Source: Octopus sinensis | Lineage: Eukaryota | Assembly (NCBI RefSeq): GCF_006345805.1 | Contig: NC_043005.1 | Coordinates: 85,436,001 to 85,500,000 of the forward strand | DNA length: 64,000 nt | Direction of reading: 5' to 3' | Shown: positions 6,690 through 61,241 of the stretch, in pieces | Layout: every line of letters starts with the position of its first letter | Position numbering within the stretch: position 1 is the first letter of the stretch | Notes under the pieces: generated by a model | What the model saw: only the letters and a program-made list of their open reading frames with translations | The model's database searches: none | Told to the model about the DNA's origin: nothing | Program-made: the position numbers and the translations under genes

Positions 6690-7249
6690 CTTACATATAC
6701 GTACATGCCTACATATATATGTATATATGCATGCATATATGGGTACAGGACGTCAAAAAAAACGTGAACAAAATGAGAAACAAGAACATAAAAAACAAAA
6801 ACATGGAAAACGAACGTTTTTGCGAACAACGAAAGAAACAAATAGAGAACCGAGACAGGCAAAAAAAGAAAATTTCCTTCATCAGTTGTCCCCTGTTTTA
6901 TCTACTCCACATTTCAAAGGTAGGGACAAAACGTGGATTTGTTAAAACAGTCCTTCCCATAAAGCAAATTAAATAAAATATGGGATTTTTCGCGGAGGGT
7001 TAAAGTGGTAACAAAAACAGGACAGTGAGAACAAAACAGTAAAAACATGGCGAGGTCTTTTAAGCCATAACGAGGTGATGAGGTGAATGTTAGAAAAATG
7101 AGGTTTGAGAAGAGAAATGTACTAGCACGTCTTGTCTTTAGGAAGAAAGTAGAAGAAAGAAAGATAGATAGCCGTTGGTCATGTATGAGCAACGAGAGAG
7201 TCAAGGAGGAAGAATGAGAGAGAGGGAATAGTGAAGGGGAGAGGAGAAG

Positions 7250-12269: not shown

Positions 12270-12612
12270 ATAAATAAATAAACATAGGCATATATACATA
12301 CATATATGTACGTACCTACCTTTACATGTATATATACATGCATATATGGGTACAGGACACCAAACACGTCGAACAAAATGAGAAACGAAAACATAAACAC
12401 AAAACCAAGGAAATGGACATTTTTTTAAAACAACGAAAAAATAGAGTACAGGACATACAAAACAAGGAAAATTCCCCTTTTTCAGTCGCCTTAATTTCAT
12501 CTACTCCACGTTTCGAAGGTCAAGGCGATACATGACTTCAATGAAAATTTCCTTCCGCGAAAATCAAAAAATAAAATTGAGATTTTTTTGCGGAGGGGTA
12601 AAAATGGTTACA
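12270..12612 (-). mobile_element. Family P element; permuted hammerhead motif at 12474-12534 with mutated core
   Basis: Minus strand: catgt-A-tcgcctt-ga-ccttc-GAAAcgtg...aaggcga-CTGAAAA-agggg. Confidence 0.6.
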
Positions 12613-31370: not shown

Positions 31371-31545
31371 TAACAATAACAACAACAACAACATCAAAAA
31401 ATACCTTAGGCGTGAGAACCCAGGTTTTAAATTTCCCTCAAGACACCTGATGAGGGCTGGAGGGTATATCAGCCGAAACGTTGTGTTAACAACAAACAAA
31501 ATGAGGACAAATATCCGTCAAATGTAAATAATATAAATAATTTTT
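30864..31545. mobile_element. Inverted dimer of a tRNA-headed element with (AAT)n body and hammerhead-bearing tail
   Basis: tRNA-like head 31149-31212 with B box gagttcgattcc, then (aat)n, then tail with HHR. The mirror copy is 30864-31150. Another tail copy lies at 63878-64000. Confidence 0.75.
31442..31487 (+). ncRNA. Minimal type I hammerhead ribozyme motif
   Basis: gacac-CTGATGA-g-ggctg(gagggtatat)cagcc-GAAACGTT-gtgtt. Helix III is reduced to palindromic aacgtt, as in Penelope-type minimal HHRs. Confidence 0.7.
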
Positions 31546-40985: not shown

Positions 40986-41128
40986 CTATATATATATTAT
41001 ATATAATATACAATCAAGGAACGGCCATAATAGGCCATTCACCCACTAGAATAACAGCCAAAAGCTTTAACCGCAAAATAACATCAATTCCGTAAACCAG
41101 GAGAAAATTAAAAAACATTTACCCTGTA

Positions 41129-41235
41129 ATTTCTTATACGATGCACCGTTTCGTCTACTGTTTAATGGTAAACTAACCTGATTAAATTAAATCAAGCCAA
41201 TCTACCATAGGCCCTTAGATTCATCAGTAAGAAAT
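41129..41235 (-). ncRNA. Type I hammerhead motif (inverted copy)
   Basis: Reverse complement of 41457-41563. Confidence 0.7.
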
Positions 41236-41456
41236 AGCCAAGTCGGAACAGATATTTTTCACGAGGCATTTTTTTTTTGCCACCCTATATTGATTAATTA
41301 TGAATTTTCTGGTTAATTCCGTAATGGAATCGGCGGCTTATATTTATTTGCTGCCGATAAATTTGGCGCGAGTGCGATGATTTGAAAATTTTAGGTCAGA
41401 TATTGCCGAGGCAGGGACGGGAATGCCTCGTGAAAAATATCTGTTCCGACTTGGCT

Positions 41457-41563
41457 ATTTCTTACTGATGAATCTAAGGGCCTATGGTAGATTGGCTTGA
41501 TTTAATTTAATCAGGTTAGTTTACCATTAAACAGTAGACGAAACGGTGCATCGTATAAGAAAT
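41457..41563 (+). ncRNA. Type I hammerhead motif, unit 1
   Basis: atttctta-CTGATGA-atcta...tagac-GAAAC-ggtgcatc-GTA-taagaaat. Perfect 8-bp helix I, near-palindromic helix III and GUA cleavage triplet. Confidence 0.72.
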
Positions 41564-41944
41564 TACAGGGTAAATGTTTTTTAATTTTCTCCTGGTTTAC
41601 GGAATTGATGTTATTTTGCGGTTAAAGCTTTTGGCTGTTATTTCTTGTGGGTGAATGGCCTATTATGGCCGTTCCTTGATTGTGATGTTGAACTTAAAAA
41701 TGGTCTATGACTATTTAATTTTTTCCCACTAGGCCGCTGGTGGCAAAAAAATTCTACAAAATTTTTTTGCCACCCTATATTGATTAATTATGAATTTTCT
41801 GGTTAATTCCGTAATGGAATCGGCGGCTTATATTTATTTGCTGCCGATAAATTTGGCGCGAGTGCGATGATTTGAAAATTTTAGGTCAGATATTGCCGAC
41901 AGGGACGGGAATGCCTCGTGAAAAATATCTGTTCCGACTTGGCT

Positions 41945-48892: not shown

Positions 48893-50160
48893 TAAATGGA
48901 GTTAAACGCAGGTGTTATTCAAATATGTGTGTATATATAAACATATACATATATATGTATGTATGTATATATATGCATATGTATATATGTGTGTGTGTTT
49001 GCCTCTCTCTCTGTGTGTATGTGTGTATATATATGTATATATATTTGTATATCTATGTATTCTTTTACTTCCGTCTCATGTTTCAAAGGTATTACTGTTA
49101 TTATTCCAAAGGAAGAAAATAGTGTAAAACAATGTAATCTTCTCTTCGGGGAAGTGAAGAAATGAAACTCGTCAATAAAACATTTTAACAGGAAATGATG
49201 GATATGTATAGTGATTAACTGAATGTTATTAATATTGTTTAAAAAAAACGTTACAGGATATAACGTCAGAGGTAGCCTATAGAAAGAGGAGGGATAAAGT
49301 AAAGAAAAACTAAATAAATGAGAAGTATATGACTATATGTATATTAAATAAAACCTTATAGATTAGGAAAAATATATATCTAGTGAATGTGAAATGTAAA
49401 AAGAAAATTAATGTTTAAATTATATATAATAATACGAATCACTTATATGAACTAAAGGTGTGTTTCTGCCAATGTTTACATTGGTATGCACGCTCTATAA
49501 CCGTGTTTACAAGGGTTATTTTTAGAAAAAATAAAAATAGTTCAGAATTACAGAGAAGATAGAATTCCTTGCCTTTGTCATAAGGTATCGAGATTGAGAG
49601 AATCAACCAATCTAAATTAAATTGTTTATTATGGTCTCTTAGATTCCAAATTAATTTACTAAGCCCTGTACTGTTACGTTTATTCCTATCCCTAAATGTA
49701 GAGTAATGATTAGAAATTATTTTAGATAGCTGTAAAGACGTGCTTCCTATATAAAAATATACTTGATTACGAGTAGTAATTTTACAGTGGTATATAGAAT
49801 TTTTAATTTTAGAGTTACTTGACATAAACTTGATTTTGTTGTAATTGACTTCAGATACAATAACCTTGTTATTAATAATGCTAGACGGATGGATGGTATT
49901 AGCTAAATTAATGTTAGTATTAGTAAATGTATTAATATTTAACAGGTTGATATTATGTGAAGAGATAATTTTAAAGAAATATTTAGTGCTGGAAAAACCA
50001 ATCCTAACCGTATTTGAGTTGATAATGGAGTAATACCTAGAAATCTTTGGAAAATTCCTAATAGTAGCTTCACAAAACTGCAATAGGAGATTAGATTTAA
50101 TTTGGCTCCCATATGGAATAATCAACCAAATGGTTTTGCTACTAGTTATCTTATTTTTAG
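48893..50160 (-). mobile_element. Penelope-like retroelement, 5'-truncated 3' end
   Basis: GIY-YIG remnant followed by a terminal region with degenerate HHR acttcc-CCGAAGA...GAAAC..ggaagt (49067-49155). Confidence 0.75.
49439..50125 (-). pseudogene. Penelope-like GIY-YIG endonuclease domain remnant
   Basis: SIYHCKIT...YIGST...NHYSTF...NSTGLSKLIWNL...W.IL....PY......LCNSE...CKH is the typical PLE endonuclease signature. Confidence 0.8.
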
Positions 50161-50227
50161 TGTAATTACACTAAAAATAATTGTTAACAAGTGAAAAATA
50201 CATCTATCTAATCTATCTATCTATCTA

Positions 50228-55751: not shown

Positions 55752-56645
55752 ATATATATGTGAGAAATTCTGTCTGTGGGTGTGTTTGTAGAGTTGTTAG
55801 CTAACTCATACATCGTTTTATGGATTTTGATGAAACTTAATACGTGAACGGAACTCATGTCTGGAAACCTCATGGCATACTCAGATTGTTGCAAAAATCG
55901 ATAAGAGGGCCCTGGAAAAAATCCTTATATATAGAATATATTTCATTTTAACATCCAAGGGAAATAACCCATTCGCCTAGATTTTAATACCCAAAGGATA
56001 TAAACCATTCATTTTCCTAAATTATTTATTAAAAATGAAATGAATATGCTTATTTCTTAGTATTTGAACTGTTAGAGTTATTTTCGCAATTTATCCAGTA
56101 CAAGCCTTAAACAAGTAAATAGTATTTTCCTAAACAATAGATCCATTTATTTCACTTAGGGACTTATTCACGATTATACCAACACTAGCGCTGCTGAGGG
56201 TAAAATTCTCTGGGAATGCACAAAAGTCCTTTTCAGAGATATTTACTTTGAATTGTTATTATTTCATATCTGATTAGCCTGTTATTACGTAACATGCTTC
56301 ACGATTTTAGTATACATATCTTATTAGTATTTCCTCCTATGTTCTATATACTCTGGGAATGCATTAAAGCCCTTTTCGGGCCTACTTTATTTGAATTCTT
56401 ACTATCGGGTAACTAATTTCATGTTATTATATAACTGACTTCATAATTTGGGTATTCATATCTTATTGGGAATTCCTAAAAACAAGATACCGTGTAAGAC
56501 ATTCGGTATTATCTGTAAATGCAGAAAACCCATTTTAAGGGCTACATACTTTGTATTGTTGTTATTGGATTAACGAAACAATTATGAGAACGGAAACAAA
56601 GGATAAGCCCCGCTTTCCCGGGAATTACCGGGTACGACAGCTAAT
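55752..56645 (+). mobile_element. Helitron-like non-autonomous element (~0.9 kb)
   Basis: 5' tctgtctgtg...ggattttgatgaaactt. 3' hairpin cccgggaattaccggg followed by CTAA|t. Confidence 0.6.
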
Positions 56646-56752
56646 AATTTTATTTGTATCGTTTTTTGTCACATGTTTAACTTTCCTTGTTTTTACCCCT
56701 CTGCGAGGTAATTTTATTTAATTCCTTCGCAGGAAGGATTAGTTCCACGAGT

Positions 56753-56812
56753 CGTGTTCTGTCCAACCTTCGAAACACGCTGGAGTTGAACTAGGGACAG
56801 CTGATGAAGGGG
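56753..56812 (+). ncRNA. Candidate non-circularly-permuted hammerhead ribozyme
   Basis: cgtgt-T-ctgtcc-aa-ccttc-GAAAcacg-(15 nt)-ggacag-CTGATGA-agggg. Confidence 0.52.
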
Positions 56813-57854
56813 ATTTTTCCTTGTGTAGTTTGTCTTGTACTCTGTTTTTTTCCGTTTAGGTCCGTTTCCACGTTTGTTTTTACGTTTTCGTTTCTCGTTG
56901 AGTTCTACGTCTATTTGTGGTGTCCTGTACTCACGTATATATATTTATATATGCATGTATATATACATGTAGATGTAGGTACGTACATATATGTATGTAT
57001 GTATGCATATATTTTATTTATTTACCCCTCTGCGAGGTAATTTTATTTAATTCCTTCGCAGGAAGGACTAGTTCCACGAGTCGTGTTCTGTCCAACCTTC
57101 GAAACACGTATATATATTTATATATGCATGTATATATGCATGTATATATATATATGAATGTATATATGCATGTATATATACATGTTTTTACGTTTTCGTT
57201 TCTCGTTGAGTTCTACGTCTATTTGTGGTGTTCTGTACTCACGTATATATATATTTATATATGCATGTATATATACATGTAGATGTAGGTACGTACATAT
57301 ATGTATGTTAGTAAGCATATATTTTATTTATTACACTATTGTATGACTGAGCGCCCTCGCGTCGATTCGATTCGTTTTCGTTTCGTTTCATCTCCTCCAA
57401 GTAAGTTTTGCTATTTATAATTGTGACGCGAAACTCTACAGCTCTTTGCTTGACCTTCTCTTCCTTCCCTATCTCCCTCTCTCTCTCACAGCCGCTTGTC
57501 TTCCTCTATCTCTCTCTCTCACTCCTCCTCATCTCTTTCACAGCCGGGCGAGTTGCTTCCTTTTGCTGCTGGCATTCTAACAGTGAACACTGTTCTTCTA
57601 GCGTTCTTAGAATCTTTCCTCGTGTAGGCCAGCATTAAGGCCCTCATTGTCTGTTTTTTTGTTTGTTTTATTTCTTGTACTGTATTTTTCGTACTTGTAA
57701 ATTTATTCTGTACTTTTATTTTTTTCTTATTTTTGTATTTTATTTTGTAATTTTATTTGTATCGTTTTTTTCACATGTTTAACTTTCCTTGTTTTTACCC
57801 CTCTGCGAGGTAATTTTATTTAATTCCTTCGCAGGAAGGAATAGTTCTACGAGT

Positions 57855-57914
57855 CGTGTTCTGTCCAACCTTCGAAACACGCTGGAGTTGAACTAGGGAC
57901 AGCTGATGAAGGGG
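57855..57914 (+). ncRNA. Candidate non-circularly-permuted hammerhead ribozyme (second repeat)
   Basis: Identical to 56753-56812. Confidence 0.52.
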
Positions 57915-58125
57915 ATTTTTCCTTGTGCAGTTTGTCTTGTACTCTGATTTTTTCCGTTTAGGTCCGTTTCCACGTTTGTTTTTACGTTTTCGTTTCTCGT
58001 TGAGTTCTACGTCTATTCGTGGTGTCCTGTACTCACGTATATATATTTATATATGCATGTATATATACATGTAGATGTAGGTACGTACATATATGTATGT
58101 ATGTATGCATATATTTTATTTATTA

Positions 58126-58181
<56 letters not shown>

Positions 58182-60617: not shown

Positions 60618-60671
<54 letters not shown>

Positions 60672-60675
60672 CACA

Positions 60676-61213
60676 CAAGAGTGAGTAAAATAATAATGCC
60701 ATTTTCTTTAGGACAGGTATAATTACCAACACACGAACATGTATCATACATCAAAATGAGGCTGGTCCTCTGTGGATCACATCCCTACTTCTCAACATAG
60801 TCACCGTTTCTCTCAATAGCAATGTTCCACATTCGAATGAGATCACGTATCCCTGCCCCGTAGAATTCTGTTGACTGCTCTTTGAGCCACTTCTTCACTA
60901 CAGTTTTCACTTCCTATCATCTCTTTGGTCCCATGAAAGAGGATTTGAGAGGTAAACATTATTCCAGTGATGGGGAAGTGTAAACTGTAGTGAAGAAGTG
61001 GCTCAAAGAACAGTCAACAGAATTTTACGGGGCAGGGATACATGCTCTCATTTGAAGGTGGAACATTGCTATCGAGATAAACGGTGACTATGTCGAGGGG
61101 TAGGGATGTGATCCAGAGAGGACCAGCTTCATTTTGATGTATGATACATGTTCCTGTGTTGGTAATTATACCTGTCCTAAACAAAATGGCATTACTTTTT
61201 GACCCACCCTCAT
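60676..61213. mobile_element. Fold-back MITE built from two mariner 3' ends
   Basis: Arms 60676-60914 and 60973-61213 are inverted. Plus strand from 60915 reads YHLFGPMKEDLRGKHYSSDGEV*TVVKKWLKEQSTEFYGAGIHALI*RWNIAIEINGDYVE. Confidence 0.88.
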
Positions 61214-61241
61214 ATACATATATATATATATATTAATATAT

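What the first reader, a model, noticed from the sequence alone, without database searches (positions are those of the whole stretch)
56753..56812. Hammerhead ribozyme strands in a non-circular (Z-Y-X, pseudoknotted) order, with covarying helices across copies
Established: a hammerhead has three strands, X (Ib-CUGANGA-IIa), Y (IIb-GAAA-IIIa) and Z (IIIb-UH-Ia). Types I, II and III are the circular orders XYZ, YZX and ZXY. Seen: this repeat family has the order Z-Y-X. In the copies at 56753 and 57855, helix III is cgtgt/acacg and helix I is ctgtcc/ggacag. At 6876-6937(-), III is tccacgt/atgtgga and I is ttgtccc/gggacaa. At 12474-12534(-), III is catgt/acgtg and I is tcgcctt/aaggcga. In all copies exactly one unpaired nucleotide (the H of GUU or GUA) separates IIIb from Ia, helix I abuts CUGA and helix III abuts GAA. 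The helix sequences differ but pairing is preserved. Inference: a 1-2-nt crossover from helix I to helix II could replace the usual loop-loop contact, with an 11-15-nt linker spanning III to I. That would give a topology I do not recognise and that descriptor searches for types I-III would miss. Assembly in trans or as a multimer is an alternative. Caveats: helix II (agg(gg)/ccttc) is weak and almost invariant, and the 12.5-kb copy has a mutated core.
Basis: partly seen in the sequence, partly recalled or inferred. Interest (0 to 1): 0.88.

Follow-up and report, generated by a model that had tools for sequence, protein, structure and literature searches.

The report
Rewired hammerhead ribozyme in animal retrotransposons
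A repeat copied more than a thousand times in this animal genome carries every catalytic base of a self-cutting hammerhead RNA, likely folded in a layout I could not find described, and the same layout sits at the tail of several jumping-gene families, including one reported to lack the usual hammerhead; cutting is inferred from where truncated copies begin and has not been tested.

Summary
The Z-Y-X strand order is real, but it is published: it is type SGC (Eckert 2023, PMC10085705), found there only in metatranscriptomes. Across 11 repeat (sub)families of this genome, the strand before GAAA pairs with an upstream strand (54 of 55 positions, nine different helix sequences), not with the strand after CUGANGA (27 of 55). 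That downstream strand pairs with the 5' flank. A hairpin and this extra helix form a four-way junction in the A9-G10.1 link, which Eckert's six permutations treat as unbreakable. The motif is 56696-56812. It lies in a non-coding Penelope-type unit of about 790 nt, in Naiad 3' ends (8 published records; ctenophore to octopus), and in LINE-type 3' UTRs. Six nematode Naiads carry plain type CSG. Copies chosen by their 3' tail alone begin at or just after the predicted cut: 13 of 28 (family A), 7 of 29 (C), but not clearly in N or E. Cleavage is untested. The scan earlier noted an A9/G10.1 opening in phage hammerheads and rearranged hammerheads in other Penelope-like elements.

The parts
56696..56812 (+). 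Whole predicted ribozyme, subfamily A, intact core: P5a-P6-IIa-P4a-IIIb-H-Ia-IIb-GAAA-IIIa-P4b-Ib-CUGAUGA-P5b
56696..56700 (+). P5a CCCCU, pairs with AGGGG 56808-56812 (the strand right after A9)
   Evidence: length covaries: CCCCU/AGGGG in A and C, CCCU/AGGG in B
56701..56732 (+). P6 hairpin, abutting P5a and IIa with no spacer
   Evidence: 3 pairs changed on both sides
56733..56737 (+). IIa GAAGG (G10.1 = 56733), the upstream partner of CCUUC
56739..56745 (+). P4a, pairs with 56788-56794; equivalent to the stem I-II ('I') helix of types SGC and CSG
56753..56764 (+). Block S: IIIb CGUGU, H17 = U 56758 (predicted cut 3' of it), Ia CUGUCC
56767..56779 (+). Block G: IIb CCUUC (C11.1 = 56771), GAAA, IIIa ACACG
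56788..56812 (+). P4b GAACUAG, Ib GGACAG, core CUGAUGA (56801-56807), P5b AGGGG
57798..57914 (+). Second intact copy, in the full unit
57025..57108 (+). Broken copy (P5a to IIIa) that jumps into the tail at a short CACGT microhomology
56645..58131 (+). Partial-tandem insertion: 5'-truncated unit, broken fragment, then a full non-coding unit of about 790 nt (57340-58131) ending in (TA)n; splice-donor-like GTAAGT at 57401-57406 followed by pyrimidine tracts
6875..6999 (-). Subfamily B copy, decayed in P5, P6 and helix II
12474..12598 (-). Subfamily C copy; core reads CUGAAAA where the subfamily has CUGAAGA

Best explanation
The stretch holds all conserved hammerhead bases inside a high-copy Penelope-type repeat and likely folds into a self-cleaving hammerhead of the reversed (SGC/CSG/GCS) ring that is opened between A9 and G10.1, where a hairpin (P6) and a closing helix (P5) are predicted to form a four-way junction; it is predicted to cut after 56758. 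Shown from sequence: the core bases, covariation of six helices, and the position near the 3' end of three kinds of retroelement. Inferred: P5 stacks on P6 while helix II stacks on the A9-G12 pair as in any hammerhead. The short Ia-IIb crossover and P4 would hold helices I and II together. Cutting in tandem transcripts would release unit-length RNA. Both products stay held by II, III, P4 and P5, so they could religate or circularise. Reverse transcription of such RNA would give the partial tandems, and copying of the cut 3' piece would give the short copies that begin at the site. The mobilising enzyme of A/B/C is likely a Naiad-type Penelope protein; I did not find the link.
For: Upstream helix II: 54 of 55 positions pair (51 Watson-Crick) in one chosen copy from each of 11 (sub)families, all starting G10.1-C11.1; the canonical downstream strand gives 27 or 25 of 55. 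Own-family against cross-family pairing of consensuses: II 4.9 vs 2.9 of 5, P5 3.9 vs 1.9 of 4, P4 4.5 vs 2.0 of 5; canonical II 2.5 vs 2.3. The full II+P6+P5 junction is present in 24 of 36 A, 21 of 28 B and 24 of 29 C copies, against 4 of 180, 6 of 140 and 12 of 145 shuffles. The free positions H17 (U, C, A) and N7 (U, A) vary between families. GAAAC-gap-CTGATGA patterns give 785 vs 29 and 1556 vs 9 reversed-control hits. The same layout was read by eye in 8 Naiad records of Craig 2021, File S5. 5' ends of tail-selected copies fall at -5..+25 of the site in 13 of 28 A copies (p about 1e-6, window set after seeing the data) and 7 of 29 C copies (p 0.02, one exactly at the site). Type SGC and CSG relatives cleave in vitro (PMC10085705).
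Against: There are no cleavage data; the runs laid were contigs only. The upstream partner was chosen as the best of a range of positions, the copies were hand-picked for good preservation, and C11.1 was required by the search patterns for N, E, G, D, F and H, so those counts are inflated. Single copies of E (5 of 34), G (3 of 18), D (0 of 6) and H (6 of 19) pass the junction descriptor little or no more than shuffles; the support there comes from consensus and best copies. Helix II and P5 show no double-sided change within A-C. The 5'-end pile-up is weak in N (4 of 29, p 0.15) and absent in E (1 of 30), and a reverse-transcriptase stall at the knotted fold could also produce it. LINE-type copies keep the 3' tail beyond the site with an intact core, so cutting must be slow, regulated or reversed. 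The knot-free fold of A and C prefers a different rod. Whether P4 and III can be joined on both strands in one molecule was not modelled.
Confidence: 0.72

Rival explanations
1. Plain type-SGC hammerhead: helix II forms with the strand after CUGAUGA (one extra A, then G-C, G-U, G-U, G-C), and the upstream pairings are an off-state.
For: A and C can form 4 pairs in this register and B 3. The tested SGC constructs have one extra base after A9 (oligos; descriptors). N and E also keep UG after the core.
Against: The register gives 0-2 contiguous pairs in the N, E, G, D and H1-H3 consensuses and shows no family-specific pairing. It fails in the coral, cubozoan and clam-shrimp Naiads read by eye. 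The duplex is weaker: -2.2 to -2.8 kcal/mol against -4.6 for the upstream helix and -7.4 for P5.
Confidence: 0.08
2. The same pairings form between two molecules or two tandem units (domain-swapped dimer), as for minimal Penelope hammerheads, and not within one strand.
For: The element occurs in partial tandems (12 of 89 loci show an upstream direct copy). The closure of P4 onto helix III on both strands is tight (0-nt linker in E), and Eckert et al. note the same geometric problem.
Against: Most copies are single. All pairing partners lie within about 120 nt in a fixed order with 0-2 nt junction gaps. SGC and CSG constructs cleaved co-transcriptionally as single constructs.
Confidence: 0.08
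3. A hammerhead-derived fold kept as a protein-binding or reverse-transcriptase landing structure, with little or no cutting in vivo.
For: LINE-type and Naiad copies run through the site with an intact core. There is no excess of core mutations among E copies. Short copies could come from stalling.
Against: All catalytic bases are kept across unrelated elements and four phyla while the helices change freely. H17 is never G in the 11 consensuses. The 5' ends cluster at the site, not at the 3' edge of the fold (+26..+56: 1 of 28) or at P6.
Confidence: 0.12

Closest known systems
Type-SGC hammerhead (HRIMA-1 and variants; Eckert, Friedrich, Weinberg, Weinberg 2023, PMC10085705; main text parts 1-6 of 8 and supplement parts 1 and 8 read)
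   Same: S-G-C order, short Ia-IIb crossover, and a helix that follows IIa and precedes Ib (their 'I', here P4)
   Different: Here IIa lies 5' of everything and the strand after CUGANGA forms P5. Two helices are inserted where that paper allows 1-2 nt. Theirs came only from metatranscriptomes; these are in animal chromosomes in high copy.
Type-CSG hammerhead (same paper; two metagenomic sequences)
   Same: Same reversed ring. Moving the Ib-CUGANGA block of CSG to the 3' end, with the break after A9, gives this layout. Six nematode Naiad records read as plain CSG.
   Different: CSG keeps A9 linked to G10.1 and has no P5/P6.
Naiad Penelope-like elements (Craig et al. 2021, PMC8557442; passages, metadata sheet and motif hits in the supplement read)
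   Same: (TA)n targets, partial tandems, inverted 5'-truncated copies. Family N matches the 3' end of the Naiad_Obim and Naiad_Ovul records and has a Penelope-type RT upstream.
   Different: That paper reports no canonical hammerhead in Naiads and flags only 'HHR_core' or 'HHR_half_core'. Families A, B and C show no reverse-transcriptase ORF in the unit.
Animal non-LTR retrozymes (Cervera and de la Pena 2020, PMC7229834, search listing only; Li, Clavereau, Pollet 2026 preprint, parts 1-2 of 5 read)
   Same: Non-coding tandem units with a hammerhead, proposed to be non-autonomous Penelope derivatives; the unit length is within the 51-972 bp range they report
   Different: They are defined by type I hammerheads, and their descriptors would miss this one. 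Circular RNA is not shown here.

Membership tests
Hammerhead ribozyme | CUGANGA, GAAA and UH (H not G) core | tested here: met
   A-C were found by homology, not by the core
Hammerhead ribozyme | Helices I and III abutting the core, with covariation | tested here: met
   (I 49 of 55, III 48 of 55 positions paired)
Hammerhead ribozyme | Helix II starting with G10.1-C11.1 before GAAA | tested here: met
   11 of 11 with the upstream strand; partner position was optimised
Hammerhead ribozyme | Site-specific self-cleavage after H17 | not testable with these tools
   only indirect: 5'-end pile-up; contigs uninformative
Types I, II, III (circular orders) | Order CGS, GSC or SCG; Rfam match | tested here: not met
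   order is S-G-C; no hammerhead family among 3 Rfam hits at E<=10
Type SGC | Block order S, G, C | tested here: met
Type SGC | Block C unbroken: stem II strand directly after CUGANGA | tested here: not met
   the block-C/stem-II part of the published descriptor (CUGAUGA[U]G + stem II) fits 7 of 247 anchored copies, none of A or C
Type SGC | Helix joining the far sides of stems I and II | tested here: met
   P4 in most family consensuses; C read by eye; F unresolved
Penelope-like element derivative / non-LTR retrozyme | Partial tandems, inverted 5'-truncated copies, microsatellite flanks | tested here: met
   upstream direct copies at 12 of 89 loci, inverted copies at 8 of 89; microsatellite after the tail in 75 of 90
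Penelope-like element derivative / non-LTR retrozyme | Type I hammerhead in each unit | tested here: not met
Penelope-like element derivative / non-LTR retrozyme | Circular RNA intermediate; shared ends with an autonomous partner | tested here: inconclusive
   no partner ORF linked to A/B/C in 90 loci or in 30 RT-selected loci; circles not testable
R2-superfamily (restriction-like endonuclease) LINE, families E, G, D | RT followed by zinc knuckle and restriction-like nuclease before the 3' UTR | tested here: inconclusive
   RVT_1 at E 3e-8 for E and E 0.02 for G; knuckle and nuclease motifs and the label 'Hero-like' are recalled, not returned by a call (searches gave no name)

The most novel reading that the evidence does not exclude
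A seventh natural hammerhead wiring, outside the six block permutations: the reversed ring opened inside the catalytic strand by a four-way junction. It would be the working ribozyme of many Naiad elements and of a LINE clade across at least four animal phyla, with other Naiads using type CSG. Non-circular permutations would then be abundant in animal genomes, and thousands of genomic copies would record the in vivo cut site.
Probability: 0.65. Interest if true: 0.88.

Novelty: new variant of a known kind. Interest (0 to 1): 0.8.

Why it matters
It breaks the published rule that the CUGANGA block cannot be interrupted. It moves non-circularly permuted ribozymes from rare metatranscriptome contigs into animal chromosomes. 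It offers a testable answer to why Naiad elements seemed to lack the hammerhead that other Penelope elements carry. It puts the same ribozyme in the 3' UTR of an unrelated LINE type, which raises the question of how a cutter about 110 nt from the template end is tolerated. P6 varies freely in length and sequence, so it may also be a natural insertion point for engineered switches.

Tried and rejected
Rfam: no hammerhead hit in the region; the window-wide top 150 of 494 hits showed no hammerhead and were mostly microRNA models on microsatellites. A covariance-model search of the whole genome was not available, so patterns were used; family sampling is therefore limited to three-base helix II endings and the first 100 listed places per search. 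GACGAAAC-gap-CTGATGA was not enriched (88 vs 76), and TCCGAAAC only modestly (131 vs 49). The 45 pattern hits I could not assign to a family pass the descriptor in 3 cases and are mostly chance. One pattern in viral contigs gave 14 hits, none with the layout by eye. No RNA holder was listed, and contigs cannot show ends. Survivor bias for dead ribozymes in family E was rejected: the core is intact and only a G-run is hypervariable. A type II parse of the region fails for lack of IIIb-UH-Ia between GAAA and the core. The G8-A9 register (GAAGG/CCUUC using core bases) exists in A-C and partly in N but not in E or G. The AAGGA/UCCUU rod of A and C was not seen in the other families by eye. Protein searches did not name the E nuclease. 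The Penelope fragment beside L029 looks like a separate insertion. Literature searches that found no description of this layout. Subscription papers and bioRxiv supplements are not covered, and Eckert's alignment files were not read.

Full report
Observation. The window shows, at 56753-56812, IIIb CGUGU, one unpaired U, Ia CUGUCC, CCUUC, GAAA, IIIa, Ib GGACAG and CUGAUGA. The other three copies read as stated, and a descriptor over both strands finds only these four. They belong to three subfamilies (A, B, C) of an interspersed repeat. First-look candidates in the 2.72-Gb genome G000 number 1955, 1865 and 2609 for the three queries; these are lower bounds and may overlap. Typical B and C copies have intact cores, so the defects in the 6.9-kb and 12.5-kb copies are decay.

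The order as drawn is known. Eckert et al. 2023 (PMC10085705) define blocks S, G and C, describe type SGC, and show cleavage at the predicted site with compensatory mutants. They found it only in metatranscriptomes. They assume block C cannot be interrupted, which gives six permutations. Their SGC descriptor needs CUGAUGAG or CUGAUGAUG followed by stem II. That part of the descriptor fits 7 of my 247 anchored copies and none of A or C.

The helix II assignment does not survive comparison. Craig et al. 2021 (PMC8557442) say Naiad elements lack canonical hammerheads but flag half cores. I read the motif hits in their File S5 by eye: CTGATGA places 26-60 of 62, CCGAAAC 30 of 30, TCGAAAC 14 of 17 and ACGAAAC 14 of 18; motifs split across lines are missed. 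Eight of the 54 Naiad records show one layout: three Acropora records, Naiad_EuTe, Naiad_Obim, Naiad_Ovul, and two records named only from file order (a ctenophore, whose helix I has only 2 pairs, and a cubozoan). In them the strand before GAAA pairs with an upstream strand (GGCUCC/GGAGCC, GACGCC/GGCGUC, GGCCCC/GGGGCC, GACACC/GGUGUC). The strand after CUGAUGA pairs with the 5' flank (GUAACUGU/ACAGUUGC, GGGG/CCCC, AGAGG/CCUCU), and a hairpin lies between the two upstream strands. Six nematode Naiad records read instead as plain type CSG with the I-II helix.

The same layout in G000. Patterns GAAAC-gap-CTGATGA with three 5' prefixes gave 785 vs 29, 1556 vs 9 and 131 vs 49 control hits; a fourth gave 88 vs 76. 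The loci sort into families N, E, G, D, F and H1-H3 besides A-C, and 45 stayed unassigned. Of 255 loci, 3 duplicates and 5 without an anchor were dropped. On family consensuses, the upstream strand pairs 4.9 of 5 positions with its own family's IIb and 2.9 with others. The canonical strand gives 2.5 vs 2.3; P5 gives 3.9 vs 1.9 of 4, and P4 4.5 vs 2.0. The script mis-parsed P4 in C, P5 in D and H1, and most of F. In one well-preserved real copy per family, 54 of 55 upstream positions pair against 27 or 25 for the canonical strand. Helix II has nine distinct sequences. The upstream position was optimised, so a shuffle control was run: the full junction appears in 24 of 36 A, 21 of 28 B, 24 of 29 C and 13 of 28 N copies, against 4 of 180, 6 of 140, 12 of 145 and 21 of 140 shuffles. 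E (5 of 34), G (3 of 18), D (0 of 6), F (1 of 4) and H (6 of 19) are near shuffle level because their copies are decayed or vary in a G-run. Among 18 A-C copies, 95% of cells pair (41-53% when slid). Seven pairs change on both sides, in P6, III and I; II and P5 show none.

Resulting anatomy: 5'-P5a-P6-IIa-P4a-IIIb-U-H | Ia-IIb-GAAA-IIIa-P4b-Ib-CUGANGA-P5b-3', at 56696-56812. P4 follows IIa and precedes Ib, exactly like the 'I' helix of SGC and CSG. The molecule is therefore the reversed ring opened between A9 and G10.1. P5 and P6 abut each other, A9 and G10.1 with no spacer in A, B, C, N and E, which is the geometry of a four-way junction (inference).

Host elements. A-C are units of 740-840 nt without a reverse-transcriptase ORF. 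They show upstream direct copies at 12 of 89 loci, inverted copies at 8 of 89, and a microsatellite after the tail at 75 of 90. The full units inspected begin with a splice-donor-like site and pyrimidine tracts. These are the Penelope hallmarks listed by Craig et al.. Family N matches the published octopus Naiad 3' end, so the genome is octopus-like. Six of 30 loci picked by a Naiad-type RT match (including the query locus) carry the motif downstream on the same strand. E, G and D carry it in the 3' UTR of a LINE-type element that ends 75-85 nt after the core. RVT_1 was found for E and weakly for G; the nuclease and the clade label are recalled.

Indirect sign of cutting. A copies chosen only by the tail 56815-56932 have 5' ends at -5 to +25 of the predicted site in 13 of 28 cases (the two window copies dropped). 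One lies in +26..+56, none in -36..-6, and the rest spread to -521. The interval was set on A and then applied to others. C gives 7 of 29 (p 0.02), with one end exactly at the site. N gives 4 of 29 (p 0.15) and E 1 of 30. A template whose 5' end is the cut site explains A and C. A polymerase stall is the alternative, though the ends do not gather at the 3' edge of the fold or at P6. Many copies run through the site, so uncut, religated or circular templates are also used.

Verdict. This is probably a working hammerhead (0.72) in a wiring that ten literature searches did not find. It is a new variant of a known ribozyme class, not a new class. After I had formed this reading, the scan's index showed unchecked notes of a phage hammerhead opened at the same link in the canonical ring, and of rearranged hammerheads in other Penelope-like elements; they are leads, not support.

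Noticed in passing
Craig 2021 File S5, nematode Naiad records: Six records end in clean type-CSG hammerheads with the I-II helix; type CSG was known from two metagenomic sequences.
   Followed up: partly
L144, L167, L317 (family E); L173, L198, L319 (G); L092, L094 (D): LINE-type elements with this ribozyme in the 3' UTR, ending 75-85 nt after the core with no poly(A) seen in the copies viewed.
   Followed up: partly
window 31447(+), 18101(+), 10266(-): Candidate ordinary type I hammerheads; the one at 31447 looks like a minimal Penelope type.
   Followed up: no
window 49439-50170(-): Decayed ORF that looks by eye like a Penelope C-terminal GIY-YIG nuclease.
   Followed up: no
window 57401-57545: Splice-donor-like GTAAGT, pyrimidine tracts and CACAG acceptor-like sites at the start of the non-coding unit; the donor-like site and pyrimidine tract are also in B and C.
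   Followed up: partly
family E, between P5a and P4a: A G-run covering P6b and IIa is hypervariable among copies while the flanks are about 90% conserved; family G has frequent deletions at the same place.
   Followed up: partly
L029 1880-2950: 5'-truncated Penelope fragment (RT thumb plus weak GIY-YIG match) inserted in the (TA)n tail of an A copy.
   Followed up: partly
L350, L351: Short A copies starting at +6 and +25 are preceded by an inverted piece of the unit's 5' end.
   Followed up: no
window 41050-41642 and 60657-61231: Long inverted repeats (221 nt at 100%, 258 nt at 90%).
   Followed up: no
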